Source: a virus
Lineage: Duplodnaviria > Heunggongvirae > Uroviricota > Caudoviricetes
IMG/VR virus record: IMGVR_UViG_3300012933_000331
Span: 38,070 to 102,069 of that record
Strand: one strand, 5' to 3'
DNA: 64,000 nt
The notes under the pieces are model-generated. The model saw nothing but the letters and a program-made list of their open reading frames with translations. It did no database searches and was not told the origin of the DNA. A program made the position numbers and the translations under genes. Shown in pieces: positions 10,347-55,204 of this stretch. The first letter of the stretch is position 1, and every line of letters begins with the position of its first letter.

Positions 10347-10390
10347 AGTATCCTTTCATGTCTTTTATAAACGCACATAATGCGCTTATA

Positions 10391-10419: not shown

Positions 10420-10426
10420 ACTTAGA

Positions 10427-12343
10427 TTAAGCTACGTAACGTAGAGCGGAAACTGCACCGCCTAGGTTTGTTGTAACTTGAGTCATGCCGGTACGTAGGC
10501 TAGCTACCATAACACGGCGTTGTGTTTCTACCAAGTCTTGTGTGTCAACACGCAGACCACGCTGGTTACCAACCAGGAAGTTACCTGGGTTGAAACAGAT
10601 AGCGCCCACAGCGTCAGCTGCTTTGTCTGCAAATTCAGCGCTTACGATAACTGGAGTGTTACCAACTGCACCGATTTGACCTGTTAACAGAGTGGCTTGT
10701 TGACCAACTTTGTCGACTGTTAGGAAGTTTGTATCTTCTAGCAGGTCGTAGTAACCTTCTGTGGAAACGATATAAACCAATTCTGAAGGATCCAGACCCC
10801 AGGCACCTAGGTCACGACGCATAGCTTGCAGTTTTGCAACTGTCATTTTAGCGGCATCAGAGATGTCTAGAGTAACTGCGCTTACTGCGTCGTAAGTTGC
10901 CAGACCTTTAACTGGATCGCTACCGGAACCAGCACCACGTAACATAGCACGGTCAACAGCGCGAGCAACACGGCGAACCATAGCGTCACGGATAACAGGC
11001 ATAATTGCCAGTAAGCTGTCTTCTTCTTCTTCGTATGCAACGTATTCGTTTGTAGCAACTTTATACGCGTTCAAAGTGATTTCTTTTAGCGCGTGTGTTG
11101 CTTCTGTACCAGCAGAAGCTGTTGAACCGAACGCTGTGTTAGCCATCCATGTAGCAACACCAGCTTCTGGGTTCACAGGAATAGTCATTACGTTGGTCTG
11201 CATAGTGATACCACGCAGGTTAGGGGCAACCACTAAACGACGGCGAACTTCGTTTTCCATGTTTGTGGATACTTCTAATTCCCAAGTTGCGCTTGGAACG
11301 TGAGCACCGTACTTTTGAACCATTTGCTGGCCAAACTTAGTACCTTCTAGAGCCTTACCAGCCATTTTAGCTAGGATAACGGCCTTTTCTTTGTCAGCAT
11401 AAGACATTTCACCGGCTTTGCCGTCTGTGAATTGCATACGTGACTTTTGGATAGCTTCTAGTTCAGCAGCTTTCTCTTTTAGGCTGGCTTCTAGACCTGC
11501 AACAACAGATTTAGTTTCATCAGCTTGAGCAGCAAAACGCTTCTCAACTTCAGCCAATAGTGCTTCAGCACCAGTTGTGGTTGGTGTTGCTAGAGCAACA
11601 GCAGCCTTGATTTTTGCGTCTAAGTCAGCAGCTTCTTTGTCAGCAAGTGCTTTTTCAGCAGCTGCTTTTTCTTGTGCAGCTAGCAGGGACTTAGTGGCTT
11701 GCTCAGCGGCAGCGGCCAACATTTTTTGTAGTTCTTCTGGAGTCATTTCCAATTCCTTTGTGATATCGCTTTTTGCATCGCCGGAGGCTTCTAGCCCTTT
11801 AGCTGAGTCGCTTGGGGTAGCAAATTGCATTTTGAAACTCTTAAATTCTTCGGCCGTTGAAAACGCCTTAGAAAGACTAAATAGTGTATTTTGATTAGCT
11901 GGCACAGACACAACTGATATTTCGTGTAGTTCCAGTTCTTTTACAACAAACAGCTCTAAGGCTGAATTATATTCCGCATCTACGATACGGAAACCAATGC
12001 TAAAGGCGGTTAGCACGCCGTCTTTTACAAGATTAAAAACATCCTCAGCTGCTGCAGAAATTCTTGCTTTTACATACAAGCCTTTCTCATCAACGCGGTG
12101 ATCAGTCATTCGTCCAACCGGTTCTGAGTGGTCGTGGTACGCAAGAATTACTGGATTTTTCAAATAATTCTTAATACCCGCTTCCCACACACTGGCTGGA
12201 ACAATGTCACCGTGTCTGTCAACGTCGTTGGTTGAAGCGTAACCTTCGATGGTCACACTATCAATCTTGCCGTCAGCAGTTGGTAGAGGTTCACTCTTTG
12301 TAAAAGAACTGCTAAAAAACAGTACTTTATTTTTATCTACCAT
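10427..12343 (-). CDS. Fused prohead protease, scaffold (delta) domain and HK97-fold major capsid protein.
   Basis: The N-terminal ~170 aa resemble HK97-family (U35) prohead proteases (…HGDIVPASVWEAG…ILAYHDHSEPVG…). The middle is an Ala/Glu/Lys-rich coiled coil. The C-terminal ~300 aa have a capsid-like composition. Confidence 0.65.
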   Translation of the reverse strand: MVDKNKVLFFSSSFTKSEPLPTADGKIDSVTIEGYASTNDVDRHGDIVPASVWEAGIKNYLKNPVILAYHDHSEPVGRMTDHRVDEKGLYVKARISAAAEDVFNLVKDGVLTAFSIGFRIVDAEYNSALELFVVKELELHEISVVSVPANQNTLFSLSKAFSTAEEFKSFKMQFATPSDSAKGLEASGDAKSDITKELEMTPEELQKMLAAAAEQATKSLLAAQEKAAAEKALADKEAADLDAKIKAAVALATPTTTGAEALLAEVEKRFAAQADETKSVVAGLEASLKEKAAELEAIQKSRMQFTDGKAGEMSYADKEKAVILAKMAGKALEGTKFGQQMVQKYGAHVPSATWELEVSTNMENEVRRRLVVAPNLRGITMQTNVMTIPVNPEAGVATWMANTAFGSTASAGTEATHALKEITLNAYKVATNEYVAYEEEEDSLLAIMPVIRDAMVRRVARAVDRAMLRGAGSGSDPVKGLATYDAVSAVTLDISDAAKMTVAKLQAMRRDLGAWGLDPSELVYIVSTEGYYDLLEDTNFLTVDKVGQQATLLTGQIGAVGNTPVIVSAEFADKAADAVGAICFNPGNFLVGNQRGLRVDTQDLVETQRRVMVASLRTGMTQVTTNLGGAVSALRYVA

Positions 12344-12357
12344 AATACCCCTTTGTG

Positions 12358-13542: not shown

Positions 13543-13551
13543 GTTTTACCC

Positions 13552-13983: not shown

Positions 13984-14124
13984 GTTTTAATTGGACCTCT
14001 TGAGATTACTAGTATTATACATGGTTAGATCAAAAATGTCAATACCATATTTTTTGTTGCAGGTCGTATATTTTAACTTGCCTTCAGAATCCAAAACGAG
14101 TATAATTGAATTTTTAGGAGAAAT

Positions 14125-14706
14125 ATGGCTAGCGGAATCTATAGGCTTACCTTCTCAAGTGGGAAGTTTTATATCGGCAAATCACTTGACCTTGAAACCC
14201 GCTGGAAACAGCATTTTAATAAGTTTGCAACTGGCAAAGCTGCCAGACCAATGCAGGTAGAGTACGACCGATGTGGACTACCCCAAACAGAGGCAATTTT
14301 TCTTTGTCACCAAGATCATATCGATATCATGGAAGAGTGGTTGATCGACCAATTTAAATGTGGTGATATGCTTAACACCACATATCCAAAATTAGAACGC
14401 ACAGATGAAATTGCCGACCTTATCAATTCAAATCGCGAACTGCTTGAGTTGTGTACCTGGGACCACTTAAAGATTATTAGCAGTGCACAATCAAAAATCA
14501 ACCAAGCAGACGAAGCCAGAGAACTAGCAGAAGAAGCACTGTCTGAGTACAAAGATAGTGGTTATATTATTGACCAAGACTACAAGGATTTGCTGGCACT
14601 CACCAATGAGTTCAAGAACAGGTACTTTGACCATAAAACTGAACTACAGCGACTGCAAAAGCTTGGCTGGTGGGACAGGTTATTTAGTTACAAAGTATAC
14701 GTGTAA
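14125..14706 (+). CDS. GIY-YIG homing endonuclease.
   Basis: N-terminal GIYRLTF…GKFYIGKS…ETRWKQH motifs. It is a lone plus-strand gene inserted between the minus-strand HNH and terminase genes and overlaps the terminase 3' end. Confidence 0.8.
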   Translation: MASGIYRLTFSSGKFYIGKSLDLETRWKQHFNKFATGKAARPMQVEYDRCGLPQTEAIFLCHQDHIDIMEEWLIDQFKCGDMLNTTYPKLERTDEIADLINSNRELLELCTWDHLKIISSAQSKINQADEARELAEEALSEYKDSGYIIDQDYKDLLALTNEFKNRYFDHKTELQRLQKLGWWDRLFSYKVYV

Positions 14707-15974
14707 AGTGCGTAACGAATAGCATCAGCCATGTGAGAGTAGTCGTCGTGCTTTGGGCGTTCTTTTTGCAAACCTTCTTTGGTGTCCCAGCGATACTGGT
14801 CAAACACTGCCAAGCAATGTGTACAGTGTGGTGCGACTTTGAGTCGACCTTGTGAGATTAAAGTCTGCACATACGCAATGCCTGGTAGTACATCTTTTTT
14901 GGCTTTTGTTGAGGCCAGGTCGTAGATGTAGGCAAGGTCACTGGCAAACTGTGCTGCAGCCGAATCAATAAATATTGTTTCTACGCCCCACTTGGCCGAC
15001 AGTTCTCGGAACGATTCGGCGTGTTGTGCTGTGGTAGCTTCATTTTTCAAGTACTCGTCTACTATCCAGAATGTATCTGCGATCTGGTCGTAAACAATTA
15101 CCACAAACGCTGTAAAATCACGATAACCAGGGTCACAGCCAGCAATGGCTTCGCCCAACAACCCTGGGGGACTTTCGCAAACATCGGTAACATCCAAACT
15201 ATAAATTTGACCCTCAAACACTGTGAACGAGGCCAAGTATTCTTGTTCAAATTCCGCACGCGACATAGCACGACGAGCTTCGGCAACATCCGACTCAGCC
15301 ATGCGAGTGTTTTCTGTGTAGTCCGCCTGCAAGCTAACCCATTCCGGAAAGTTAGGGTCAAATCCACGATTCCAAAATTGACTAAACCAGTTGTTGCGAC
15401 CACGAGGTGTTGAGATAAAAATCGCCTTGGCATTGGGCTTGTCTAGAGTAGGACGTAGTGCAACGTTAAACGCAGCCTCACCATCTTCACCTAGTGCGGC
15501 CTCATCAAAAATAATCAAATCATAGCTACGGCCAACACACGAATCCACAGTAGACAACGATCCCATACGAATGGTTGAACCATTTGACAATTCAATGATC
15601 TTGTCTTTTAAGTTATCACGCACAATCTCTAAGTCAAAGTGTTTGATCAACTTGCGTTGCAGCTCAAACGAAATTCCCGACAAGTTATAGTTTGGCGACA
15701 TGATTAAGACATTGCAGCCTGGTACTAAGGAGACCAGCTGTCCAACCACATTGGCAATATAAGTTTTGCCTAAACGACGTGCTAGTGCAGCACAAACAAA
15801 ACGATACTTGGGGTCGTTGACGGCATTGATCAGGGCCATTTGTGGACGATTGATGGTGTCCCAGATGCCCAATAGTTTAAGATAGTTGGTGATTGGCAGT
15901 TTGATAAAGCGACGATCAGCAGGAAATTCTACAATGTGATCTGACTCAACGTCGGCTCGAGAAATAGTTAACAT
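14688..15974 (-). CDS. terL: Terminase large subunit.
   Basis: 428 aa with an ATPase Walker-B-like segment (LIIFDEAA) followed by a nuclease-like C-terminus, adjacent to the portal gene. Confidence 0.85.
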   Translation of the reverse strand: MLTISRADVESDHIVEFPADRRFIKLPITNYLKLLGIWDTINRPQMALINAVNDPKYRFVCAALARRLGKTYIANVVGQLVSLVPGCNVLIMSPNYNLSGISFELQRKLIKHFDLEIVRDNLKDKIIELSNGSTIRMGSLSTVDSCVGRSYDLIIFDEAALGEDGEAAFNVALRPTLDKPNAKAIFISTPRGRNNWFSQFWNRGFDPNFPEWVSLQADYTENTRMAESDVAEARRAMSRAEFEQEYLASFTVFEGQIYSLDVTDVCESPPGLLGEAIAGCDPGYRDFTAFVVIVYDQIADTFWIVDEYLKNEATTAQHAESFRELSAKWGVETIFIDSAAAQFASDLAYIYDLASTKAKKDVLPGIAYVQTLISQGRLKVAPHCTHCLAVFDQYRWDTKEGLQKERPKHDDYSHMADAIRYALYTYTL

Positions 15975-16450
15975 TAAACACCATCTCCTGAAATCAAACG
16001 TGAAATTAAACTAGAATACTTTGATCCATCAAGTCCTTCATTGATTTGCACGTTTACTTGCTTTTGCGGGCCTCCAGGTGCAGCACGCAATTTTTCCAGT
16101 TGAATCTCGCGGTCTAGCAAGTCCATTGACATTTTATGTGAAAGCGCTAAGAGCTCGGATATGTCTTTGGTGGAGCCCGTGCCAGCTTCGTGCAGTTCCT
16201 GGAACTTTTGCTTGAGCAGTGCGTCCATGGCAGCACGCATTTGAAACTTGTTGTTAAAGCCTGTATCCATGAACACATGGTCAATATAACTCTTGACTTC
16301 ACGGCGCTTTAATATTTCGGTGACCAAGTCCGGTGATAAGTCCAGTTCATTGGCGACCTTTTTGGCATCTTGTAGTTGCAGGTAACAGTTTGCCACTTCC
16401 AGGGCTTCTGGGGCAATTTGTATGGTTTCAGCAGGTAAATTTTGCGTCAT
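15974..16450 (-). CDS. Terminase small subunit (putative).
   Basis: 158 aa, immediately upstream of terL with an overlapping stop/start; predicted helical and DNA-binding-like. Confidence 0.5.
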   Translation of the reverse strand: MTQNLPAETIQIAPEALEVANCYLQLQDAKKVANELDLSPDLVTEILKRREVKSYIDHVFMDTGFNNKFQMRAAMDALLKQKFQELHEAGTGSTKDISELLALSHKMSMDLLDREIQLEKLRAAPGGPQKQVNVQINEGLDGSKYSSLISRLISGDGV

Positions 16451-40203: not shown

Positions 40204-40318
40204 TATTTGAGCATATTAGCAGATGGCGTTCAACCACTTGTTTAATCCTTGCAAGGCAACACGTTTACGGGAGCAAAGTACAAGTTCCAAAAGTGGATGC
40301 TAGTGTGCTCAAATATGG
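40201..40318 (+). repeat. Conserved inverted-repeat element, copy A. CCATATTTGAGCATAT, ~85-nt loop, then TAGTGTGCTCAAATATGG.
   Basis: Homologous to the elements at 46631..46740 and 47075..47137. The G/C to T/A change between copies is compensatory. Confidence 0.5.
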
Positions 40319-40325: not shown

Positions 40326-40417
40326 GGCTCTATAGTTTAATGGTAAAACGGCGGATTTATATCCCGTAAGCAACAGATAATTGGTTCATCTGGGTTCGAG
40401 TCCCGGTGGAGCTACCA
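40326..40417 (+). tRNA. Type-II tRNA (92 nt) with an ambiguous anticodon. It reads TAT by standard numbering, but the anticodon stem has a mismatch.
   Basis: Acceptor ggctcta/tggagct; T arm ctggg-ttcgagt-cccgg; CCA; ~22-nt variable arm. The loop tttatat does not match any canonical type-II isoacceptor. Confidence 0.45.
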
Positions 40418-42734: not shown

Positions 42735-44045
42735 ATGTCTTCGATCAATCGTGTTGTGCGTCAGCCTGCTACAAATTCAGTGGGTACGCAAGTATCCCAA
42801 ATTAATGCAGAACGTCAGCTAAAGCGTGTAACCATGGCAGCAATGTTGTGGGAAAACCAGTTCTATATGGACGGTAAAACTCATGCCGAATTGGTCAAAG
42901 ACCTTGTAGCCAAAGTCGCTCCTGAAAAGGTTTCGGCTCTGGCTGAGGAAGCCCGTACAAAGTTTAAACTTCGTCACATTCCTCTGTTGCTTGTACGCGA
43001 ACTTGCTCGAAACGGAAAAATGCAAGCACAAGCCCTAACCAATGTTATTCAACGTCCAGACGAAATGTCTGAATTTTTGAGTATCTATTGGAAGGAAGGC
43101 AAAACTGCTGTATCGAACCAAGTTAAAAAAGGCCTTGCAGCTTGCTTTAACAAGTTTTCGGAATACCAGCTTGCCAAATGGAATAAGAATTCATCCGCAA
43201 TCAAATTGCGCGATGTAATGTTTATCTCCCACCCTAAACCGCAAAATGCCGAGCAAACAGCGCTGTTCCAGCGCATTGCGGCTGATACACTTGAAACTCC
43301 CGACACATGGGAAACTCAATTATCTAGCGGCGCAGATAAGTGTGGTACGTTTACTCGTCTTATGACTGAGAAGAAGCTAGGTGCTCTAGCTTTCTTGCGT
43401 AATCTGCGTAATATGCGCGACAGTGGTGTAGCGGATTCCCTTATCCGCAGTTATGCACAAACTGTTGACGTTAGCAAAGTCCTGCCTTTCCGCTATATTG
43501 CGGCGGCACGTATTGTTCCACAATACGAGGATATGCTAGAACAAATGATGTTTCGCAGCCTAGCGACACATCAAAAAATTCCTGGAAAGACTGTTCTGTT
43601 GATCGACGTAAGTGGCTCAATGTTCGGTACCAGAATTTCCTCAAAATCAGATCTAGATCGCTTCGATGCGGCAGCAGCACTCGCTATGCTGTGCCGTGAA
43701 GTTTGTGAGGAAGTCGAGATTTATAGCTTTAGTAATAATGCTGTGCGCGTTGCACCTCGTCGTGGATTTGCTCTCCGCGAAGCTATTTCAAGCTCTCAAA
43801 GTCACGGTGGAACTGCTCTTGGCAATTCCATGAAGACTGTAAACAGCGCGAGTTCATATGACCGTTGCATTGTGTTTACTGATGAGCAAAGCTATGATCG
43901 CCCAGGTGCTCCTCGTGGTAAAGGTTACGTTATCAACGTAGCTGCCTACGAAAACGGAGTCAACCACCAAGCATGGACTGAGATCAATGGTTTCTCAGAA
44001 GCTGTAATTGATTACATCCAGGCATTGGAGCAGGAAGCTGCTTAA
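42735..44045 (+). CDS. rsr: Ro60 ortholog Rsr (TROVE plus vWA domains).
   Basis: C-terminal vWA domain with MIDAS motif VLLIDVSGSM…GGTALGN…CIVFTDEQSY, closely matching the Ro60 pattern (DVSxSM…GGTD…IVFTDNE). The N-terminus is TROVE-like. Confidence 0.7.
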   Translation: MSSINRVVRQPATNSVGTQVSQINAERQLKRVTMAAMLWENQFYMDGKTHAELVKDLVAKVAPEKVSALAEEARTKFKLRHIPLLLVRELARNGKMQAQALTNVIQRPDEMSEFLSIYWKEGKTAVSNQVKKGLAACFNKFSEYQLAKWNKNSSAIKLRDVMFISHPKPQNAEQTALFQRIAADTLETPDTWETQLSSGADKCGTFTRLMTEKKLGALAFLRNLRNMRDSGVADSLIRSYAQTVDVSKVLPFRYIAAARIVPQYEDMLEQMMFRSLATHQKIPGKTVLLIDVSGSMFGTRISSKSDLDRFDAAAALAMLCREVCEEVEIYSFSNNAVRVAPRRGFALREAISSSQSHGGTALGNSMKTVNSASSYDRCIVFTDEQSYDRPGAPRGKGYVINVAAYENGVNHQAWTEINGFSEAVIDYIQALEQEAA

Positions 44046-44428
44046 CCTACTTACCCACGACCCAAGCCTGTAGCCAGTCAGGTGTTATAAAGGTGGGGCT
44101 CTAAGCTAAGGGCTTAGAATAGCATATGGTGCACTAGTACAGTTACTTCTATTTGGTTTGAAAACACACTGTACTTAATTATTCCTATGTTATTCTAAGC
44201 CCTTTGCGCTTTTATCGGCTACTTCTAGACTCTTAATCTAACCAAAACACCGATAATACTTATTCAAGGGCTATTTTATTATTGCTTTGGCGATAGTTAC
44301 AGTTTCATCAAAAGTTCGATTCTTTTATTACGAGCCTATTCGTTATTCGCCAAGTGGTATGGCACCGGAAGCATATTCCGGGAAAACTCTGTAGCGATTT
44401 ATTCCAAGCACCTTACAAGGAAATTACA

Positions 44429-44677
44429 ATGAGTGATGGTGGCAAAGGCTCAAAGCCTAGACCCTTAAGCGTAGCAAACGAAGAATACGCAGCACGCTGG
44501 GACGCAATCTTTGGTCGCGATAGGCTAGAAGATTCGGAAACAGACAAAACAACTCGTAATAATAGCGAAACACAAGAAGCCTTGGCACAAGGCAAGTCGG
44601 TTCCACTTTCAAGTCTGCCTGAACTACAAGAAATTGTATGCAAAGGCTTAGCTGATGGTACACTCTTCTTAAGTTAA
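44429..44677 (+). CDS. Hypothetical acidic protein (82 aa).
   Basis: RBS aaggaaat precedes the ATG; start trimmed. Confidence 0.4.
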   Translation: MSDGGKGSKPRPLSVANEEYAARWDAIFGRDRLEDSETDKTTRNNSETQEALAQGKSVPLSSLPELQEIVCKGLADGTLFLS

Positions 44678-44681
44678 ATAT

Positions 44682-44755
44682 ATGTCCCTGGTGTAATGGC
44701 AGCACGTTGGTCTCCAAAACCATTGGTCAGAGTTCGAGTCTCTGGGGGCGTGCCA
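44682..44755 (+). tRNA. tRNA-Trp (CCA).
   Basis: Anticodon loop ctccaaa; T arm cagag-ttcgagt-ctctg; CCA. Confidence 0.65.
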
Positions 44756-44806
44756 AAATTTAGACTTGTTGTTGATTTCAAAACTTGATATAATTATTCT
44801 TTAAAC

Positions 44807-44892
44807 GGAGAAGATGTTCTAATGGTAGGACAGCGGATTGTAAATCCGTGGCCTCTAGAGGCAAGTGGGTTCGATCCCCTCATTCTCCACCA
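44807..44892 (+). tRNA. tRNA-Tyr (GTA), type II.
   Basis: Acceptor ggagaag/attctcc; anticodon stem gcgga/tccgt with loop ttgtaaa; 15-nt variable arm; CCA. Confidence 0.7.
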
Positions 44893-44899
44893 GATTTAT

Positions 44900-44983
44900 G
44901 CGACTGTGGTGGAATGGTATACACAGCAGACTTAAAATCTGCCGCTTAATTGATTAAGGGTTCAAGTCCCTTCAGTCGTACCA
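44900..44983 (+). tRNA. tRNA-Leu (TAA), type II.
   Basis: Acceptor gcgactg/cagtcgt; anticodon stem gcaga/tctgc with loop cttaaaa; CCA. Confidence 0.7.
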
Positions 44984-45432
44984 GTTTAGTCTAGTAAGGA
45001 AAGTAAACGGAGAATGGGAAGCGATAGAGAGCTGAATCGAATCGCGGATACCTCACCGGCTAGACATTTCATATGGTCTTAAAGTGTTCATGGACGCACA
45101 CAGCACTGTCACTGCTGTAGATGGGGATCGTTACCCCATAAGACCGCCAAATTTATCAGTACCTATCATAGATAAGTAAGTTACGTCAAGCTGTATATGC
45201 TTATAAGCGTCTAATAAGATTTACTATACTGATTATAGAACCTGCCTTAGGTCCGTGCCGTTACGGTTAGAGCGTCCGTAACTCATCCGTTGGATACGAT
45301 AAGTCCAAGCTGGAACCGTAACCAGCACTATTATTTTAGCGTATTACCATCCATTATAAACAAGCAGGAGAGATACCTGTTGTCCAGCGATCACATCAAC
45401 GGGGTAAGGGGTAGTGTGCTAAACTAATATAT

Positions 45433-45507
45433 TCCACAGTAGCACAGCGGTAGTGCAAACGACTGTTAATCGTTTGGTCATTGGTTCGATCCCAGTCTGT
45501 GGAGCCA
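45433..45507 (+). tRNA. tRNA-Asn (GTT).
   Basis: Acceptor tccacag/ctgtgga; anticodon stem aacga/tcgtt with loop ctgttaa; CCA. Confidence 0.7.
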
Positions 45508-45636
45508 AATATAGTCTTAGTGAATAAATCAGTTACTTCTTTTAATGCTTATAAAAACGATGCCCGTTCGATTCGTGGCAAGGCCGCTGGTGCATGGGCC
45601 AATATCTGATTTTACTGTTCTAGACTTTTCTTTTGT

Positions 45637-45710
45637 TGGGGGTTAGTGAAATGGTATCACACGGGATTTTGATTCCCTTGTCACAGGTTCGATTCCTGTA
45701 CCCTCTGCCA
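45637..45710 (+). tRNA. tRNA-Gln (TTG).
   Basis: Anticodon loop ttttgat; T arm acagg-ttcgatt-cctgt; CCA. One mismatch at acceptor positions 1-72. Confidence 0.55.
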
Positions 45711-45718
45711 CACTTAAT

Positions 45719-45795
45719 GCGTTCGTAGCATAACTGGATAATGCCCTAGCCTACGAAGTTAGAAATTGGGAGTTCGAATCTCTCCGGACGCTCCA
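45719..45795 (+). tRNA. tRNA-Arg (ACG).
   Basis: Acceptor gcgttcg/cggacgc; anticodon loop ctacgaa; T arm gggag-ttcgaat-ctctc; CCA. Confidence 0.7.
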
Positions 45796-45803
45796 CATAT
45801 ATC

Positions 45804-46274
45804 ATGCACAAATTTAACTTACAAGAAGTCAAAGACTTCATTAATGCTCAGTCAGCTGAAACCAAGGTTTACCTTGGCGCTGATAGCGAACGTGTTAAAG
45901 TTAATGGTGTATGGCACGCTGACTATACTCTAGCAGTTGTTGTTCACATTGACGGTAATCACGGTTGCAAAATCTTTGGTTCAGTAACTCGTGAACGCGA
46001 CTTTGACCAAAAGGTGTCGAAACCAGCACTTCGCTTAATGCAAGAAGTATATAAGGTTTCAGACCTATTTCATGAACTTTCAGATGTACTACAAGATCGT
46101 CACGTTGAAGTTCACCTAGATATTAACCCCAACCTAATGTACGGTTCTAGCTGTGTTGTTCAACAAGCTATTGGCTATATCAAAGGTACTTGTAATGTTG
46201 ATGCTCAAGTAAAGCCCAACGCTTTTGCAGCAAGCTATGCTGCTGACCGATTAAAATTTGTATTGGCTAACTAA
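45804..46274 (+). CDS. Hypothetical protein (156 aa).
   Basis: Track ORF. Confidence 0.5.
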   Translation: MHKFNLQEVKDFINAQSAETKVYLGADSERVKVNGVWHADYTLAVVVHIDGNHGCKIFGSVTRERDFDQKVSKPALRLMQEVYKVSDLFHELSDVLQDRHVEVHLDINPNLMYGSSCVVQQAIGYIKGTCNVDAQVKPNAFAASYAADRLKFVLAN

Positions 46275-46479
46275 AATGTCCGACCGCTTCGACCTAGAAC
46301 AAAATATCATGCAATGCTGGAATGTTTGTGATGACATTCAGCTGATGCTTGATATGTATGATAAGCTGGACGAAGATGCCAAGCAAAACTATTTGATCGG
46401 ACTCAAACAAATGTATCAAATGAAGTTTGAGCGATTATGGGACAACTTTGAAGGTTGTATTCGTCGTAAACAAATTTAA
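46258..46479 (+). CDS. Hypothetical protein (73 aa).
   Basis: Track ORF overlapping the previous stop. Confidence 0.4.
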   Translation: MYWLTKMSDRFDLEQNIMQCWNVCDDIQLMLDMYDKLDEDAKQNYLIGLKQMYQMKFERLWDNFEGCIRRKQI

Positions 46480-46480
46480 T

Positions 46481-46555
46481 GTAGGTGTGGCGGAACGGCT
46501 ACGCGTCGGATTGCAAATCCGTTCTATGCAGGTTCGAGTCCTGTCACCTACTCCA
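46481..46555 (+). tRNA. tRNA-Cys (GCA).
   Basis: Acceptor gtaggtg/cacctac; anticodon loop ttgcaaa; T loop ttcgagt; CCA. Confidence 0.65.
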
Positions 46556-46557
46556 AT

Positions 46558-46633
46558 GCCGGTTTAGCTCAGTTGGTAGAGCAACTCCCTTGTAACGAGA
46601 AGGTCGCGTGTTCGATTCATGCAACCGGCACCA
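46558..46633 (+). tRNA. tRNA-Thr (TGT).
   Basis: Acceptor gccggtt/aaccggc; D arm gctcagttggtagagc; anticodon loop cttgtaa; T loop ttcgatt; CCA. Confidence 0.6.
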
Positions 46634-46740
46634 TATTTTAGCATATTACTTGCCACTTAATGCATATATGTGGAGTAACGCGCGCACACCTTCCACGGGT
46701 AATCAGGAGCACCTGACATGGGTAGTATGCTAAAATATGG
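46631..46740 (+). repeat. Conserved inverted-repeat element, copy B. CCATATTTTAGCATAT, ~75-nt loop, then TAGTATGCTAAAATATGG. Its right arm is the 5' end of the tmRNA acceptor piece.
   Basis: Covaries with copy A (40201..40318). Identical 12- and 14-mers recur at 47077..47088 and 47122..47135. Confidence 0.5.
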
Positions 46741-47090
46741 TTGTATGAAGCAGACAGAAACAGGTTCTGGACGCGGGTTCGAGTCCCGCCAGCTCCACCA
46801 TAAGCGTATTTAAGGGGGTTCGAGTCCTCTCTATAAAACTGGTAGTTGTAAGTAATACGCTTTTGATGGGGCTGCATTTGGTTTCGACAGGGCAAAGAGT
46901 AAACAAGTAGACAACTCGGCAATGTAGAAGCCGTAGGGTTAGGGATTCCTGGCCGCAGAAGCAAAACAAAAATAAACGCAAACGATACACAGTTCGCATT
47001 GGTAGCCTAACAGCCGCCTAGGGTTTTGTCAGGTTTTCCTCGTAACAGAATAAACCTGACCCTAAACCAACATAAATTTTAGCATATTGA
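46721..47090 (+). ncRNA. ssrA: Circularly permuted (two-piece) tmRNA gene. The acceptor piece (…T arm, CCAGCUCCACCA) is at ~46721..46800, an intervening segment at 46801..46867, and the coding piece (GGGGCUG…tag ORF…) at 46868..~47090.
   Basis: The 3' hallmark ctggacgcgggttcgagtcccgccagctccacca ends at 46800, upstream of the 5' hallmark ggggctgcatttggtttcgacaggg beginning at 46868. Acceptor pairing ggggctg/cagctcc keeps G3:U70. The resume codon and tag GCA AAC GAT ACA CAG TTC GCA TTG GTA GCC TAA (46978..47010) encode (A)ANDTQFALVA, preceded by …gcaaaacaaaaataaac as in E. coli tmRNA. No T arm or acceptor follows the tag. A putative P2 pairing joins 46722-46735 with 47077-47088. Confidence 0.7.
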
Positions 47091-47149
47091 ACCACATATG
47101 GCAATCAGAGCCGGACTGTCGTAGTATGCTAAAATTTATGAAGGAAACC

Positions 47150-47737
47150 ATGAAATACACAAACATTCTCGACCCTAAATTGTTTCAGTCGGACAAATAC
47201 TCAAACAATTTCACCAAGCCAGTCGCACACATTCATGAGTTTTATCTTAGCGGGCCAATTTGTGACGCTGAAGAATACATTGAGTGGTTTGACGTTATTC
47301 GTAACGCATCAGCAACTGACACAATTCGCATTTACATCAATAGCCCTGGTGGTGACCTATTTACTACACTACAGTTCTTGCGAGTAATGTCGGACACAGA
47401 TGCTACTGTTGTTTGTAGTGTAGAAGGCGCTTGTATGAGTGCAGCTACCATGATCTTCCTACACGGTCATAGTCAAGAAGTTACTCCACATAGCTTGTTT
47501 ATGTTTCACAACTATAGTGCCGGAACATTTGGCAAAGGCGGCGAAATGTACGATCAGCTGCAGTTTGAACGTACTTGGTCAGAAAACTTTATGACTGAAG
47601 TGTATCAAGGCTTTTTGACACCTGAAGAAATCTCCTCAATGATGCACAACAAAGACATTTGGATGGGTTCTGAAGAAGTTGTCCGTCGTCTAACAGCCAT
47701 GCAAGCACAGCGTGAAGCTGAAGCAGCACAAGAATAA
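47150..47737 (+). CDS. clpP: ClpP-like serine protease (S14 family).
   Basis: …IYINSPGGDLFTTLQFL…VEGACMSAATMIFLHGH… matches ClpP signatures (INSPGG, GxAxSxAxxI). RBS aaggaaa precedes the ATG at 47150. The gene lies immediately downstream of the tmRNA. Confidence 0.65.
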   Translation: MKYTNILDPKLFQSDKYSNNFTKPVAHIHEFYLSGPICDAEEYIEWFDVIRNASATDTIRIYINSPGGDLFTTLQFLRVMSDTDATVVCSVEGACMSAATMIFLHGHSQEVTPHSLFMFHNYSAGTFGKGGEMYDQLQFERTWSENFMTEVYQGFLTPEEISSMMHNKDIWMGSEEVVRRLTAMQAQREAEAAQE

Positions 47738-47778
47738 AACATGGCTAAACCCTCTGCGCAAGTACGGTTTAGTTCTCT

Positions 47779-47870
47779 GGAAAGTAATGCAGCGGGGTTG
47801 GTCCTGCGACTGGCCTTGAAAACCAGGTTCTCAGAAATGGGATGGGGTTCGACTCCTCTGCTTTCCGCCA
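47779..47870 (+). tRNA. tRNA-Ser (TGA), type II.
   Basis: Acceptor ggaaagt/gctttcc; D stem gcag/ctgc; anticodon loop cttgaaa; long variable arm; CCA. Confidence 0.6.
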
Positions 47871-47876
47871 TAAGAC

Positions 47877-47945
47877 AGCACACTGGGTGTGGCACATCCA
47901 TTAAATCAAGCTGGTTTGAGTCCGGCAGCCACAGTGTGCTTTCTT
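47877..47945 (+). ncRNA. Long irregular hairpin (9 bp, bulge, 4 bp) capped by a T-arm-like stem-loop gctgg-tttgagt-ccggc, followed by ttcttat. Either a tRNA-like minihelix or the operon terminator.
   Basis: agcacactg (877-885) pairs with cagtgtgct (932-940), and tggc (890-893) with gcca (928-931). A T-run follows. Confidence 0.3.
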
Positions 47946-48269
47946 ATGGCTATTTCATTTAAAAACATCAAAGACCCTAAACTGGGGATAACTGATACAA
48001 TCACATTTGGTAAACTAAAAGGTTGCCGTGTATGCGATGTAGCCCAAGATCATTACGAATACTTGATTTGGGCTGAAAAGTCCGGTTACGTTAAGTTTCA
48101 AACCGAGGCTATTGAGCTGATTCAAGAGCAGGCTAGTTTTGCCCGTTGGCAGATACATGAAGCCGAAGAAGTTGCCCCATACATGGATGGCAACAAATAC
48201 GAATACTTGGCAGAAATTGCCAGTCGTCAAGACTATGACACAAGTTTTGAAGATGATGTTCCATTTTAA
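47946..48269 (+). CDS. Hypothetical protein (107 aa).
   Basis: Track ORF 47889..48269 trimmed to the first ATG after the hairpin. Confidence 0.45.
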   Translation: MAISFKNIKDPKLGITDTITFGKLKGCRVCDVAQDHYEYLIWAEKSGYVKFQTEAIELIQEQASFARWQIHEAEEVAPYMDGNKYEYLAEIASRQDYDTSFEDDVPF

Positions 48270-48270
48270 T

Positions 48271-48346
48271 GCGTGCTTAGCTCAGCTGGTAGAGCAGTTC
48301 GTTGCCAACGAACAGGTCGCAGGTTCGAACCCTGTAGCCCGCACCA
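48271..48346 (+). tRNA. tRNA-Gly (GCC).
   Basis: D arm gctcagctggtagagc; anticodon stem gttcg/cgaac with loop ttgccaa; T loop ttcgaac; CCA. Confidence 0.7.
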
Positions 48347-48370
48347 CAATTACCCTTGCGCCAAACTGGC

Positions 48371-48586
48371 CAAAATACAATGTACAAAGTCTACTGGACA
48401 AATGAAACTGGTAATGCCTGTAGTGCGGAAATACCTCAATTACAGAACACCTTAATTTACGTAGACTTATTACGCAAACAAGGTATGTTATTTGTAACAA
48501 TGGTTTCAGATTATGCTGACATGGTAGGCAAACCAGGCGCACAAGGCGCTGGTGCAGAATATACACCACAAATGTTAAACCCATGA
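48371..48586 (+). CDS. Hypothetical protein (71 aa).
   Basis: Track ORF trimmed to the ATG. Confidence 0.4.
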   Translation, partial: QNTMYKVYWTNETGNACSAEIPQLQNTLIYVDLLRKQGMLFVTMVSDYADMVGKPGAQGAGAEYTPQMLNP

Positions 48587-48756
48587 GTGTGGAATCTCCT
48601 TGTGTAAAACTATGCAAGATAGAGGCAGGAGTTTGTATGGGATGTAAACGAACTTCGGCAGAATTAACAGACTGGTACAAGCTATCAGACGAACAAAAAC
48701 TAGAAATACTAGAAAAAATCAAACAGCGCGGGGTTGGTATAGTGGCTGTGCTCTAG
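48583..48756 (+). CDS. DUF1289-like small Cys protein (57 aa).
   Basis: SPCVKLCKIEAGVCMGCKRTSAEL…LSDEQKLEIL matches the DUF1289/YdhL-like pattern. Its 3' end overlaps tRNA-Gly(TCC) by ~29 nt. Confidence 0.45.
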   Translation: MSVESPCVKLCKIEAGVCMGCKRTSAELTDWYKLSDEQKLEILEKIKQRGVGIVAVL

Positions 48757-48801
48757 CCTTCCAAGCTAGTGAGACGAGTTCGATCCTCGTACCCCGCTCC
48801 A
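48728..48801 (+). tRNA. tRNA-Gly (TCC).
   Basis: Acceptor gcggggt/accccgc; anticodon stem ctagc/gctag with loop cttccaa; T arm acgag-ttcgatc-ctcgt; CCA. Confidence 0.7.
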
Positions 48802-48805
48802 ATTT

Positions 48806-48880
48806 GCATCCTTAGCTCAGTGGTAGAGCGTCGGATTTACATTCCGAGGGTCGGCAGTTCGAAACTGTCAGGATGTACCA
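48806..48880 (+). tRNA. tRNA-Val (TAC).
   Basis: Acceptor gcatcct/aggatgt; D arm gctcagtggtagagc; anticodon loop tttacat; T loop ttcgaaa; CCA. Confidence 0.7.
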
Positions 48881-48981
48881 ATTAAAACCGCTAAGGAACC
48901 GCTCGATGTACTGGAGCCTCCAGGGGATGCGGCAATTAGGGTTACCCTTGACCCTAAACTATATAAACTTGAACACAATTT

Positions 48982-49173
48982 ATGCAACCACACCAACAAC
49001 GAGTAGTAGACGAACACAGTGCTTTAACCGATAAAGCCAAAGCACTATACAACTTTTTTGTAAATAAAACCTTTGAAACACTAGATAGTGACGAGCAAGA
49101 GCTACTTAAAATGCAATACTATTCAATGATGGTATATGCAGGTATCTTGCAAAAACGAATTGCAAAATTTTAA
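48982..49173 (+). CDS. Hypothetical protein (63 aa).
   Basis: Track ORF. Confidence 0.4.
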   Translation: MQPHQQRVVDEHSALTDKAKALYNFFVNKTFETLDSDEQELLKMQYYSMMVYAGILQKRIAKF

Positions 49174-49232
49174 ACTTGAACAAATCCCCTAAAGCCAGTA
49201 TAATATATACTTCTTTAGGGGATTTCTGCATT

Positions 49233-49583
49233 ATGAATCCAGATAAACTATTAACAATGGCAGAATTTGTGGCAGACTTAACAAAATACCACAACATCGA
49301 CATTAACTCAATACACGAATTACATCAAATCATGAACACAACAAAAATTATAAATCAAGCCACAATGCACGATACAGTGCGTAACAAACAGTTTATTGTT
49401 GGTAGCTTTCAGCCAGCAACTGGACTTAGCTTTGCTGCTATTCCAACTGTGCAATATTCAGCAACACAGGCTCGTAGTGAGTGCAAACGCTTGGCTAAAA
49501 TGTACCCAGGCAAGACATTTGTTTATGTGCAGCTGCAGGGTGCTGAAATGACTGTGCCACAGCCAACAACTGTTAGTATCTAA
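49233..49583 (+). CDS. Hypothetical protein (116 aa).
   Basis: Promoter AGTATAATATATACTTC is upstream; start trimmed. Confidence 0.45.
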   Translation: MNPDKLLTMAEFVADLTKYHNIDINSIHELHQIMNTTKIINQATMHDTVRNKQFIVGSFQPATGLSFAAIPTVQYSATQARSECKRLAKMYPGKTFVYVQLQGAEMTVPQPTTVSI

Positions 49584-49888: not shown

Positions 49889-50412
49889 TGGCTAATATAT
49901 TTTTTGCAAGCGACCATCACCTTGACCACGCTAACATCTTAACATTCAAACGCGACGATGGTACTGCCTTACGCGAGTTTGAGTCAGTTAGTCACATGAA
50001 TGAACATATTGTTAATTGTCACAACTCAGTGGTACGTCCCGGTGATAAAGTGTACTTCTTAGGTGACGTAACCATGAGTTCCAAGACCAGTGCACTAGAT
50101 ATTCTGTATCGCATGAATGGTGAGAAAATTTTAATCAAAGGCAACCACGACTTGTGCAAATTATCTGCGTACGCAGCACATTTCAAAGACGTTCGTGGTA
50201 GTCATCAGTTTGAGGGTCTAATCATGACCCATATACCCATTCACTCAGAGAGCTTAGCTCGCTGGGGATTAAATGTGCATGGGCACCTACACCACAATGT
50301 GGTAAAGATGCCACTATCACAAATTCCAGACCGTCGTTATTTTAACGTTTCGATGGAACGTATTAACTATACCCCTATTTCTCTAGAAGAGGTTAAAAAA
50401 CAATGTCGGTAA
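49888..50412 (+). CDS. Metallophosphoesterase (calcineurin-like).
   Basis: ASDHHLDHAN…GDV…GNHD…H motifs. Confidence 0.6.
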   Translation: MANIFFASDHHLDHANILTFKRDDGTALREFESVSHMNEHIVNCHNSVVRPGDKVYFLGDVTMSSKTSALDILYRMNGEKILIKGNHDLCKLSAYAAHFKDVRGSHQFEGLIMTHIPIHSESLARWGLNVHGHLHHNVVKMPLSQIPDRRYFNVSMERINYTPISLEEVKKQCR

Positions 50413-50855
50413 CATTACAAAACCTGGAGAGTGCCTTAGCCGGTGAATCCATGGCCTATACAAAGTATATGTATTTTGCCAAAATTGCTCGTGAAGAAGG
50501 TTATTCAGAAGTAGCTGACCACTTTGAGCATACTGCAAGCCAAGAACTAAAACACGCTTGGGGTCACTTAGAACTATTAATTGGCAAGCCTAGTACAAAA
50601 GTTTGTTTGGAAAAAGCCATTGAAGGCGAAACATACGAATACACAGAGATGTATCCATTGTTTGAAGCTAAGGCAATTCGTGAAGGTAATTACGAAGTTG
50701 CACAAGAAGCTCGTAACCAAACACAGGAATCTCGTGAGCACGCAGAAGCCTTTATCAAGGTTCTACAAAAAGCAGAAAAGCGCTTTGCAGCACTTAAGCG
50801 TGTGGAGCAGCGTCATGCAGAAGCATATCAACAAGTTTGGGAAACAGTAAAATGA
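50403..50855 (+). CDS. Rubrerythrin/ferritin-like diiron protein.
   Basis: ESALAGESMAYTKYMYFAKIAREEGY…HTASQELKHAW…EGETYEYTEMYP carries ExxH diiron ligand patterns. Confidence 0.6.
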   Translation: MSVTLQNLESALAGESMAYTKYMYFAKIAREEGYSEVADHFEHTASQELKHAWGHLELLIGKPSTKVCLEKAIEGETYEYTEMYPLFEAKAIREGNYEVAQEARNQTQESREHAEAFIKVLQKAEKRFAALKRVEQRHAEAYQQVWETVK

Positions 50856-50986
50856 CATATATTTGTGTAGTATGTGACCACGTTCACGATGAAGCCACTG
50901 AAGGCGCTTGGGATACCCTTCCGGACGATTTTGAGTGCCCTGAGTGTGGTGTAGGCAAAGAAGATTACGTTATTTTCGAGGACTAA
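50852..50986 (+). CDS. Rubredoxin (44 aa).
   Basis: CVVCDHV…CPECGVGKEDY is the classic rubredoxin CxxCG…CPxCG motif. An ATGA overlap joins it to rubrerythrin. Confidence 0.7.
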   Translation: MTYICVVCDHVHDEATEGAWDTLPDDFECPECGVGKEDYVIFED

Positions 50987-54391: not shown

Positions 54392-55204
54392 ATGAAAAAT
54401 ATCTTTAAAATTTCCGCTGTTATCGCCGCTGTTGCACTGACCAGTGCTTGCACTCGTATTGAAACTGGCGAGGTTGGTGTTCGCGTTGACGCATACAAAC
54501 AAGTACAGCCAGGTGAATTGTTGCCAGGTAGCATGAACCAGACTATTATTGGTGATGTGCTGACTTTTCCAACCAAAGATGTCAACGTCACGCTGGAAAA
54601 TATGAGTCCAGTTGCCAAGGATAACTCTACAATGAAGGACTTGGACGCTGTGGTTGTTTACAACATCAATCCACAAGCTGTTGCTGAATTGTATTCCACT
54701 AAGAACAAAAGCTTTCATGCTGAGTTCAGGGGCGATACTTACGTGATGTACAACTACATTGTACAAAATTCTCGTAATGCAATTTACAAAGCAGCACGAA
54801 AGTACGAAGCCCTGGACATGGCAGACAACCGCACTGAAATGGAAAACTACATCAAGGAAGAAATCACTCGTAACCTTGCTGAAGAAAAACTGGATGGCTC
54901 GATTACTATCAATCAGGTTATGATTCGTAATGTGCAACCAAGTGATACAGTTGTTGCTAGTGCTAATGATTTGGTTCGGTCTAAGAATGAACTCAAGCAA
55001 AAAGAAGTTGAGGTCAAAACCGCCGAAGCAGAAGCCCGACGTATTGCTGCTCTAGCACAAAACGCAGGTGCTATCCAGTACATGGATGCTCAGGCTCGTA
55101 TGAAACAAGCTGAGGCAGCTTTTGAAACTGCCAAGGCTATTGCAACATTCAAAGGTAACACTTTGGTGATTGGTGCAGGCACCAACGTCAACGTTGGCAA
55201 GTAA
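54392..55204 (+). CDS. SPFH/band-7 (prohibitin-like) lipoprotein.
   Basis: Lipoprotein signal …ALTSAC, an SPFH-like core, and a C-terminal Ala/Glu/Lys coiled coil. Confidence 0.5.
   Translation: MKNIFKISAVIAAVALTSACTRIETGEVGVRVDAYKQVQPGELLPGSMNQTIIGDVLTFPTKDVNVTLENMSPVAKDNSTMKDLDAVVVYNINPQAVAELYSTKNKSFHAEFRGDTYVMYNYIVQNSRNAIYKAARKYEALDMADNRTEMENYIKEEITRNLAEEKLDGSITINQVMIRNVQPSDTVVASANDLVRSKNELKQKEVEVKTAEAEARRIAALAQNAGAIQYMDAQARMKQAEAAFETAKAIATFKGNTLVIGAGTNVNVGK

What the first reader, a model, noticed from the sequence alone, without database searches (positions are those of the whole stretch)
47150..47737. ClpP-like protease encoded immediately downstream of the tmRNA
A ClpP-family serine protease (INSPGG…GxCxSAAT signature) starts 15 nt after the tmRNA locus. 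tmRNA tags mark proteins for ClpXP, so this pairing looks like a phage-borne trans-translation and proteolysis module. It is separate from the HK97-type prohead protease fused to the capsid gene at 10427..12343, so it is unlikely to be the morphogenetic protease.
Basis: partly seen in the sequence, partly recalled or inferred. Interest (0 to 1): 0.6.

Follow-up and report, generated by a model that had tools for sequence, protein, structure and literature searches.

The report
Phage ClpP-like protease beside tmRNA
This phage carries an intact ClpP-type protease gene, separate from its capsid protease and apparently transcribed together with its own ribosome-rescue RNA (tmRNA); many uncultivated phages keep this pairing but can do without it, and nothing yet shows that the two work together.

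Summary
The ORF at 47150-47737 (+) is real. It encodes a 195-aa ClpP-fold serine peptidase: Pfam CLP_protease is above its cutoff, PHROG 1827 scores E 2e-61, and the AlphaFold model matches only ClpP structures. Ser97-His120-Asp169 is invariant in 81 relatives. It is not the morphogenetic protease, because a Peptidase_S78-capsid fusion sits at 10427-12343 (-).

It follows a permuted tmRNA (tag ANDTQFALVA) on the same strand. In a 98%-identical relative the ribosome-binding site (RBS) starts a few bases after the last tmRNA hairpin. The bacterial-type terminator hairpin is missing, so co-transcription is likely.

- Of 72 informative related loci, 50 have the tmRNA within 2.3 kb upstream.
- A different ClpP-like subfamily follows the same tmRNA type in T4-like phages.

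The link is facultative:
- 22 relatives lack the tmRNA.
- 37 of 52 tmRNA-seeded loci lack a ClpP-like gene.
- Cultivated phages with either gene show no pairing.

Six of eight alignable ClpX-docking pocket positions are polar or charged. No ClpX or SmpB homologue was found.

Verdict: a new member of a known phage ClpP-like family. The linkage to tmRNA is conserved and probably transcriptional. Functional coupling is plausible but unproven, and canonical ClpXP docking is doubtful.

The parts
47150..47737 (+). ClpP-like serine peptidase gene (195 aa)
   Evidence: ORF. Pfam PF00574 44.5 bits. phrog_1827 E 2e-61. AF2 model pLDDT 83. Foldseek top PDB hits are all ClpP. Viral structural neighbours are phage 'Clp protease' proteins, TM 0.76-0.81.
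47140..47149 (+). Ribosome-binding region GAAGGAAACC directly before the ATG
   Evidence: Sequence. The same AAGGAA-N-ATG junction occurs in relatives.
47336..47353 (+). INSPGG motif (residues 63-68), in register with E. coli mature ClpP residues 63-68
   Evidence: I63, N64, S65, G67 and G68 are invariant in 81 family members; position 66 varies (P, Y, C or S).
47438..47440 (+). Codon of Ser97, the predicted nucleophile
   Evidence: Invariant in 81 relatives and conserved in the XacN1, PVP-SE1 and DU_PP_V homologues, whereas Cys95 is not. It sits at the junction of strand 86-96 and helix 98-104 in the model.
47507..47509 (+). Codon of His120 (catalytic His)
   Evidence: Invariant in the family and in distant phage homologues. 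It lies in the PxSxxMxH context shared with E. coli ClpP.
47654..47656 (+). Codon of Asp169 (catalytic Asp), preceded by Lys168, which matches the Arg before the E. coli catalytic Asp
   Evidence: Invariant in 81 relatives.
46708..47101 (+). Permuted (two-piece) tmRNA gene. The tag reading frame at 46978-47010 encodes ANDTQFALVA*
   Evidence: ARAGORN. Rfam RF04321 112 bits and RF01850 105 bits. The 3' terminator-like hairpin of the beta_tmRNA model is absent.
47071..47140 (+). Palindromic insert (16-19 bp arms) between the tmRNA and the clpP-like RBS; its 3' arm carries TGCTAAAAT
   Evidence: Fold -28.7 kcal/mol, z -6.9. Arms mapped. Present in window and L008, absent in L005.
46635..46736 (+). 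Second copy of the palindromic element, directly upstream of the tmRNA
   Evidence: A different palindrome occupies this site in L005 and L008.
10427..12343 (-). Comparator: HK97-type prohead protease (Peptidase_S78) fused to the major capsid protein, next to the portal gene
   Evidence: phrog_80 plus phrog_617. PF04586 plus PF05065; portal PF04860 at 12358-13542.

Best explanation
The gene encodes a catalytically competent ClpP-fold serine peptidase with triad Ser97-His120-Asp169. It belongs to the stand-alone, non-morphogenetic phage 'Clp protease' family (PHROG 1827).

It sits in the phage's tRNA/tmRNA accessory island. It is most likely made from the same primary transcript as the two-piece tmRNA immediately upstream. 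That tmRNA encodes a canonical ssrA-type degron.

Inferred role: extra degradative capacity during infection, clearing and recycling truncated or unfolded polypeptides, including chains released by trans-translation. The phage depends on host SmpB.

The surface that docks ClpX/ClpA loops in cellular ClpP is polar in this family. The enzyme therefore probably works as an ATPase-independent chamber or in mixed assemblies with host ClpP, rather than by binding ClpX itself.

Shown: gene, fold, triad, separateness from the capsid protease, conserved linkage, and junction anatomy. Inferred: co-transcription, substrates and partners.
For: - Family and fold.
- Triad invariant in 81 relatives and conserved in distant phage homologues.
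- Nucleophile at the strand-helix junction.
- Separate S78 protease-capsid fusion next to the portal gene, about 35 kb away on the other strand.
- Same-strand array of tRNAs, tmRNA and small ORFs with tiny gaps.
- In L005 (98% identity) and about 10 other lineages the RBS and ATG follow the last tmRNA hairpin by 8-25 nt.
- The terminator hairpin of the bacterial beta_tmRNA model is missing, and no + strand intrinsic terminator is predicted between the genes.
- Linkage: 30 adjacent and 20 nearby of 72 informative ClpP-seeded loci.
- A different ClpP-like subfamily lies 1.1-2.6 kb downstream of the same tmRNA type in T4-like phages.
- Tags keep AND...(Y/F)ALAA or ALVA. LVA is an efficient degradation tag (bioRxiv 10.1101/2024.01.18.576257).
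- Pocket positions V28, Y60, F82, I90, M92 and L114 of E. coli ClpP (list from bioRxiv 10.1101/2023.03.01.530711) correspond to E, K/R, D/E, S, E and T/S here.
Against: - There are no expression or biochemical data.
- 22 related loci keep the peptidase without any tmRNA within 3-6 kb.
- 37 of 52 tmRNA-seeded loci have no ClpP-like gene within at least 3 kb.
- Cultivated phages with a homologous peptidase (XacN1, PVP-SE1, DU_PP_V) or a permuted tmRNA (JGB6, Rb1, Yut2) do not pair them.
- The related loci are not phylogenetically independent, so conserved order may partly be inherited synteny of a variable island.
- In several clades the gene is translationally coupled to a SleB-like endolysin instead, which hints at another role.
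- The pocket inference rests on a sequence alignment at about 20% identity, anchored on INSPGG, GxxxS and PxSxxMxH, not on a solved structure.
- In this window a 70-nt hairpin separates the genes. It could terminate transcription or carry its own promoter.
Confidence: 0.55

Rival explanations
1. Literal ClpXP module. The phage ClpP forms the proteolytic barrel that docks host ClpX (or ClpA) and degrades proteins tagged by the phage tmRNA.
For: - Adjacency and probable co-transcription.
- Tags end in LAA or LVA and keep the AND...Y/F pattern typical of ssrA degrons.
- Full-length ClpP architecture, including a handle helix (residues 133-151) and a basic residue before the catalytic Asp.
- Loss of the phage tmRNA does not argue against this reading, because hosts have their own tmRNA.
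Against: - Six of eight alignable positions of the IGF-loop/ADEP pocket are polar or charged and are conserved as such.
- The N-terminal gating segment shows no recognisable similarity to cellular ClpP: the Pfam match begins at residue 50.
- No ClpX-like ATPase is found in the window's large ORFs or in 160 related loci.
- The family is nearer to phage ClpP-like proteases than to cellular ClpP (phrog scores against Pfam).
Confidence: 0.2
2. The neighbourhood is incidental. The peptidase has a dedicated target unrelated to trans-translation, for example a host defence or regulatory protein, or control of lysis. It simply resides in the hypervariable tRNA island where accessory genes accumulate.
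For: - The pairing is facultative in both directions.
- Homologues in XacN1, PVP-SE1 and DU_PP_V lie among replication, nucleotide-metabolism or lysis genes without a tmRNA.
- In other clades the gene overlaps the stop codon of a SleB-like endolysin and is flanked by small membrane proteins.
- The island also holds unrelated accessory genes such as Ro60-like, RNaseH-like and rubrerythrin.
Against: - Tight, promoter-less junctions with the tmRNA persist across a deep clade despite heavy indel turnover around them.
- tmRNA-to-ClpP-like order recurs with a second ClpP-like subfamily in T4-like phages.
Confidence: 0.25
3. It is a second morphogenetic (prohead or scaffold-processing) protease of the ClpP-like type.
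For: The next-best PHROG matches are ClpP-like head maturation proteases (phrog_1684 E 9e-31, phrog_94 E 1e-25).
Against: - The best family by 30 orders of magnitude is the non-structural phrog_1827.
- The gene lies in the + strand tRNA/metabolism arm, about 35 kb from the head genes on the other strand.
- A dedicated S78 protease is fused to the capsid protein next to the portal gene.
- A related family member in the T5-like phage DU_PP_V lies among nucleotide-metabolism and lysis genes rather than head genes. From my own knowledge, not checked here, T5-like phages have their own separate prohead protease.
Confidence: 0.03

Closest known systems
Stand-alone phage 'ATP-dependent Clp protease' proteins (PHROG 1827), e.g. 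Xanthomonas phage XacN1 ORF177, Salmonella phage PVP-SE1 gp151, Pectobacterium phages DU_PP_V and My1, Vibrio phage ICP1
   Same: Same fold and length class, 35-39% identity, with Ser and His conserved. They are non-structural genes in phages that have other head proteases.
   Different: None of the cultivated examples examined has a tmRNA next to it. No experimental function for this family turned up in my literature searches.
Cellular ClpP (peptidase family S14), e.g. E. coli ClpP (PDB 1TYF, 6WR2)
   Same: ClpP fold (TM 0.6-0.66). INSPGG and the nucleophile are in the same register. Ser-His-Asp triad, handle helix and similar length.
   Different: About 20% identity. The N-terminal gating segment is unrelated. 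Six of eight alignable positions of the hydrophobic ClpX/ADEP pocket are polar or charged. The loop between Ser and His is two residues shorter.
ClpP-like prohead (head-maturation) proteases of tailed phages (phrog_1684, phrog_94)
   Same: Clear profile similarity (E 1e-25 to 1e-31) and the same catalytic scaffold.
   Different: Those genes sit between the portal and capsid genes. Here that role is filled by an S78 protease-capsid fusion, and this gene lies in the tRNA island.
Phage-encoded two-piece tmRNAs (e.g. Methylophilales phage Melnitz, pelagimyophages; PMC9004378)
   Same: A permuted ssrA gene in a lytic aquatic-type phage, located among tRNAs, with a proposed role in ribosome rescue and tagging.
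   Different: The tmRNA here is beta-type rather than alpha-type. That paper does not mention a linked protease (0 occurrences of 'Clp' or 'protease').
Bacillus phage G ClpP plus ClpX and tmRNA (PMC12484599)
   Same: A phage genome carrying both a tmRNA and a ClpP.
   Different: Phage G also encodes ClpX next to ClpP, and its tmRNA is elsewhere in the genome. Here there is no ClpX and the tmRNA is directly upstream.

Membership tests
ClpP / peptidase S14 (Pfam PF00574) | Profile match above the curated threshold | tested here: met
   44.5 bits against a cutoff of 20.2, E 2e-11, residues 50-178.
ClpP / peptidase S14 (Pfam PF00574) | Ser-His-Asp catalytic triad | tested here: met
   S97, H120 and D169 are invariant in 81 relatives. 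S and H are conserved in XacN1, PVP-SE1 and DU_PP_V. S97 lies at the strand-helix junction in the model. The ambiguity with Cys95 in pairwise alignments is resolved by conservation and the model.
ClpP / peptidase S14 (Pfam PF00574) | ClpP alpha/beta fold with handle region | tested here: met
   AF2 model pLDDT 83, pTM 0.75. The 50 best PDB matches listed are all ClpP chains, probability 1.0, TM 0.57-0.66. This is a prediction, not a solved structure, and residues 121-132 are of low confidence.
ClpP / peptidase S14 (Pfam PF00574) | Assembly into heptameric rings / tetradecameric barrel | not testable with these tools
   Only a monomer was modelled. A basic residue before the catalytic Asp (K168), which matches the E. 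coli residue, is conserved.
ClpP as partner of Clp ATPases (ClpXP/ClpAP) | Hydrophobic surface pocket that receives IGF/LGF loops | tested here: not met
   E. coli V28, F30, Y60, Y62, F82, I90, M92 and L114 (list) correspond to E30, Y32, K/R60, Y62, D/E82, S90, E92 and T/S112. Six of eight are polar or charged and conserved as such. This is based on an anchored sequence alignment.
ClpP as partner of Clp ATPases (ClpXP/ClpAP) | Cognate AAA+ unfoldase encoded by the element | tested here: not met
   No AAA+ Clp domain in the ten largest non-structural ORFs. tblastn with validated E. coli ClpX finds nothing in the window or in 160 related loci. About a third of the genome lies outside the window and was not seen.
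PHROG 1827 (phage stand-alone 'ATP-dependent protease') | Full-length profile match, non-structural genomic context | tested here: met
   E 2.1e-61, 207.8 bits, residues 21-193 on profile positions 17-189 of 202. The context is the tRNA/metabolism arm.
ClpP-like prohead protease | Position in the head module between portal and scaffold/capsid; sole head protease | tested here: not met
   The head module at 9771-16450 (-) has its own S78 protease fused to the capsid protein. This gene is about 35 kb away on the other strand.
S49 / SppA / lambda gpC and NfeD ClpP-class proteases | Profile match above threshold | tested here: not met
   NfeD1b_N scores 16.5 bits against a cutoff of 40. SDH_protease scores 10.7 against 31.3. 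There is no Peptidase_S49 hit.
Trans-translation system (tmRNA-SmpB with tag-directed proteolysis) | tmRNA with tRNA-like domain and tag ORF ending in a hydrophobic degron | tested here: met
   ARAGORN and two Rfam models detect it. The tag is ANDTQFALVA; relatives carry AND..(Y/F)ALAA.
Trans-translation system (tmRNA-SmpB with tag-directed proteolysis) | SmpB partner encoded | tested here: not met
   tblastn with validated E. coli SmpB finds no hit in the window or related loci. Host SmpB would be required.
Trans-translation system (tmRNA-SmpB with tag-directed proteolysis) | The protease actually degrades tagged chains | not testable with these tools
   This needs biochemistry or genetics.

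The most novel reading that the evidence does not exclude
A phage operon couples ribosome rescue to proteolysis. The clpP-like mRNA is a 3' extension of the tmRNA precursor. Its product is a ClpX-independent (open-gate or hybrid-ring) ClpP that destroys chains released by trans-translation, and other unfolded host proteins, to feed phage synthesis. The cassette has spread between siphovirus-like and T4-like phages.
Probability: 0.2. Interest if true: 0.7.

Novelty: new member of a known kind. Interest (0 to 1): 0.42.

Why it matters
Phage tmRNAs and phage stand-alone ClpP-like proteases are each widespread, and neither has an established role in infection. A conserved, promoter-less junction between the two in a large clade of uncultivated phages gives a concrete hypothesis to test: phages boost both ribosome rescue and disposal of the resulting fragments. 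It also provides a natural ClpP variant whose ATPase-docking surface is remodelled. If the enzyme proves to be active without an ATPase, it would be a natural counterpart of drug-activated ClpP. If the linkage is only positional, the finding is ordinary genome annotation.

Tried and rejected
- Nucleophile. Pairwise HMMER and MAFFT alignments put Cys95 opposite the ClpP Ser in some cases. I rejected Cys95 because distant phage homologues vary at position 95 but keep Ser97, the INSPGG-to-Ser spacing is identical to E. coli, and the model places Ser97 at the strand-helix junction.
- hhalign of the family against a single E. coli sequence gave a poorly gapped alignment and was not used.
- The sigma-70 promoter and terminator scan of 44000-49500 found no more sites than shuffles do, so it says nothing about promoters.
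- A genome-contig scan with the 15-mer tmRNA loop motif returned only chance hits across unrelated phyla. The host stays unidentified.
- Megablast against cultivated phages matched only tRNA segments. There is no close cultivated relative.
- Literature searches for phage tmRNA-ClpP pairing or phage ClpP function found nothing relevant.
- NfeD/SPFH idea. A weak NfeD1b_N hit and an SPFH gene 6.6 kb downstream were considered. I dropped the idea because the hit is far below threshold and the genes are not adjacent.
- A YrlA (Y RNA) sub-threshold hit overlaps ordinary tRNAs and was dismissed.

Full report
**The observation.** The region holds an ATG-initiated ORF at 47150..47737 on the + strand. 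It is 195 codons plus stop and is preceded by GAAGGAAACC. An upstream TTG at 47087 would run into the tmRNA, and homologues do not support it; their N-termini align with MKYTNILDPK. ARAGORN calls a permuted tmRNA at 46708-47101 with tag ANDTQFALVA*. Rfam confirms it with tmRNA_permuted (112 bits) and beta_tmRNA (105 bits) at 46699-47065. The ATG is 48 nt past the ARAGORN end, not 15 nt.

**What the protein is.**
- Pfam CLP_protease matches above its cutoff: 44.5 against 20.2 bits.
- The best PHROG is phrog_1827, 'ATP-dependent protease', category 'other', at E 2e-61. The ClpP-like head-maturation families are about 30 orders of magnitude weaker.
- Sequence search of the PDB returns only ClpP chains.
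- An AlphaFold2 model built on 65 homologues has mean pLDDT 83 and pTM 0.75. Its 50 best Foldseek matches in the PDB are all ClpP, with TM 0.57-0.66.
- Its best viral matches are phage 'Clp protease' proteins, with TM 0.76-0.81.

**Catalytic residues.** Some pairwise alignments put Cys95 opposite the ClpP serine, so I checked this.
- In 81 family members C95, S97, H120 and D169 are all invariant.
- In the distant homologues of XacN1, PVP-SE1 and DU_PP_V, position 95 is A, V or S. S97 and H120 are kept.
- The spacing from INSPGG to S97 is identical to E. coli ClpP, whose sequence I validated against PDB 3MT6.
- The model puts S97 at the junction of strand 86-96 and helix 98-104.

The triad is therefore Ser97-His120-Asp169.

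**Not the capsid protease.** The head module on the minus strand contains small and large terminase subunits, portal (PF04860), and a 638-aa fusion of Peptidase_S78 (residues 29-156) with Phage_capsid. A head-tail adaptor, major tail protein and tape measure follow. The ClpP-like gene lies about 35 kb away on the other strand. Around it are 25 tRNAs, the tmRNA, a Ro60/TROVE-vWA protein, an RNaseH-like protein, rubrerythrin and replication genes. In XacN1, PVP-SE1 and the T5-like DU_PP_V the homologous gene also lies among replication, nucleotide-metabolism or lysis genes.

**Is the tmRNA link more than chance?** A protein-seeded scan of viral contigs gave 80 loci with 55-98% identical peptidases. 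I combined ARAGORN and nhmmer to score the tmRNA.

| tmRNA status in ClpP-seeded loci | Loci |
|---|---|
| Directly upstream, same strand | 30 |
| 0.5-2.2 kb upstream, same strand | 20 |
| None within at least 3 kb | 22 |
| Flank too short to tell | 8 |

On a neighbour-joining tree, adjacency fills one deep clade that includes the window. A nested subclade has lost the tmRNA, although two members inside it keep it. A second clade has the 'nearby' state and a third has none.

In the 'nearby' loci the intervening genes are OMP-like morons, a small conserved protein, a SleB-like endolysin and sometimes a small membrane protein. The endolysin gene often ends where the peptidase gene starts.

**The converse test.** The tmRNA loop motif CCTCGTAACAGAATA is present in 47 of 50 tmRNA loci and in none of the others. 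I used it to seed a second scan and scored the informative loci.

| ClpP-like gene in tmRNA-seeded loci (52 informative) | Loci |
|---|---|
| None within at least 3 kb downstream | 37 |
| Adjacent | 1 |
| 1.1-2.6 kb downstream, same strand | 14 |

Twelve of those 14 carry a different ClpP-like subfamily. It is 25-34% identical to the window's protein and has GQIASAG, SHQ and QDVW motifs. The contigs are 95-175 kb where the assembly is long enough to judge. The ones I examined in detail also encode gp59-like and gp32-like proteins, and two of them GroES, so they are T4-like.

Cultivated phages with permuted tmRNAs (JGB6, Rb1, Yut2) have no ClpP-like gene within 4 kb.

The linkage is therefore far commoner than random placement in a 100-170 kb genome would give, and it recurs in two phage types. 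It is still facultative in both directions, and the samples are not phylogenetically independent.

**Co-transcription.**
- All genes from about 36.9 to 64 kb that matter here are on the + strand with small gaps.
- In L005 (98% identical peptidase) and about ten other lineages the junction reads '...CCTCGTAACAGAATA-stem-CCCTAATTTAAGGAACTTATG'. The RBS follows the last tmRNA hairpin by a few bases, which leaves no room for a promoter.
- The terminator-like second hairpin of the bacterial beta_tmRNA model aligns to a gap in the phage gene.
- No + strand intrinsic terminator is predicted between the genes.
- In the window and in L008/L009 a 70-nt palindrome is inserted at this junction. It could modulate read-through, serve as a processing site, or supply a promoter, since its 3' arm carries TGCTAAAAT.

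Co-transcription is an inference from this anatomy, not a measurement.

**Could it work with ClpX?**
- The tags keep the AND...(Y/F)ALAA pattern of ssrA degrons. The window's ALVA ending is a known efficient degradation tag.
- No SmpB and no ClpX homologue is detectable in the window or in 160 related loci. Both query sequences were validated against PDB entries. The ten largest non-structural ORFs contain no Clp ATPase. About a third of the genome lies outside the window.
- I took the ADEP/IGF-pocket residues of E. coli ClpP from bioRxiv 10.1101/2023.03.01.530711. I mapped the eight that fall in segments anchored by FLTG/YLSG, INSPGG, GxxxS and PxSxxMxH.

| E. coli ClpP | Phage family |
|---|---|
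| V28 | E30 |
| F30 | Y32 |
| Y60 | K/R60 |
| Y62 | Y62 |
| F82 | D/E82 |
| I90 | S90 |
| M92 | E92 |
| L114 | T/S112 |

Six of the eight are polar or charged and are conserved as such. The N-terminal 49 residues fall outside the Pfam match. I therefore consider canonical docking of ClpX unlikely. An ATPase-independent chamber, or hybrid rings with host ClpP as in ClpP1P2 systems, fits better. This is inference from alignment only.

**Known or new?** The protein is a new, fairly distant member (up to 39% identity to cultivated examples) of an already annotated phage family whose function is untested. Phage two-piece tmRNAs are known; the Melnitz paper (PMC9004378) does not mention a linked protease. 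Phage G has tmRNA, ClpP and ClpX, but the tmRNA is not next to the protease genes. Four literature searches found no description of a tmRNA-clpP-like unit. The library is limited, so this is absence of evidence.

**Verdict.** The functional 'trans-translation plus ClpXP' module is unproven, and its literal ClpX-docking form is disfavoured.

Noticed in passing
window 40205-40314, 45333-45425, 46635-46736, 47071-47140; also 47868-47950: The tRNA island contains a family of 60-110 nt palindromic elements with 16-20 bp arms (CCATATTTTAGCATATTAC...GTAGTATGCTAAAATATGG). Two of them flank the tmRNA. The one before the clpP-like gene is present in window and L008/L009 but absent in L005 (98% identical peptidase). 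Relatives carry different palindromes at the same sites. They could be MITE-like insertions, RNase III-type processing hairpins or promoter-bearing elements.
   Followed up: partly
window 42735-44045 (+) and 45804-46274 (+): A Ro60-like protein (TROVE plus vWA; phrog_850 'RNA-binding protein') and an RNaseH-like (PF04308) protein are embedded in the tRNA array. No Y RNA reached threshold; the only YrlA hit (29 bits against a gathering score of 69) overlaps ordinary tRNAs.
   Followed up: partly
window 47779-47866 (+): A tRNA-like element lies right after the clpP-like stop codon. It has an 8-9 bp acceptor-type stem and an encoded CCA, and matches the tRNA-Sec model at 34.6 bits (below the gathering score of 47). 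ARAGORN does not call it. Locus L039 has a tRNA-Ser(tga) at the same relative position.
   Followed up: partly
window 46558-46633 (+): ARAGORN's second 'tRNA-Tyr(gta)' sits where most relatives have tRNA-Thr(tgt). It matches phage tRNA-Thr genes by BLAST and its loop reads CTTGTAA. It is probably a mis-registered tRNA-Thr(UGU); the window otherwise has no tRNA-Thr.
   Followed up: no
loci L098, L127, L142, L143, L147, L158, L163 (viral contigs; several of 95-175 kb): T4-like phages (gp59-like, gp32-like, GroES) carry the same beta-type permuted tmRNA. Within 1.1-2.6 kb it is followed by OMP-like genes, a SleB-like endolysin and a second, more canonical ClpP-like subfamily whose start sometimes overlaps the endolysin gene.
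   Followed up: partly
window 54392-55204 (+), 50403-50855 (+), 50837-50986 (+): The same arm holds an SPFH/Band-7 protein, a rubrerythrin and a rubredoxin-like small ORF. These are accessory genes unusual for a phage of about 100 kb. Xanthomonas phage JGB6 also has SPFH/prohibitin genes about 1-3 kb upstream of its tmRNA.
   Followed up: no
window 40326-40417 (+): tRNA-Ile with anticodon TAT is 92 nt long, which is unusually long for a class I tRNA. Relatives L011 and L016 have the same long form.
   Followed up: no
window 14125-14706 (+): A GIY-YIG domain ORF lies on the opposite strand between the head-module ORF at 13552-13983 and the large terminase gene. It is probably a homing endonuclease.
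   Followed up: no
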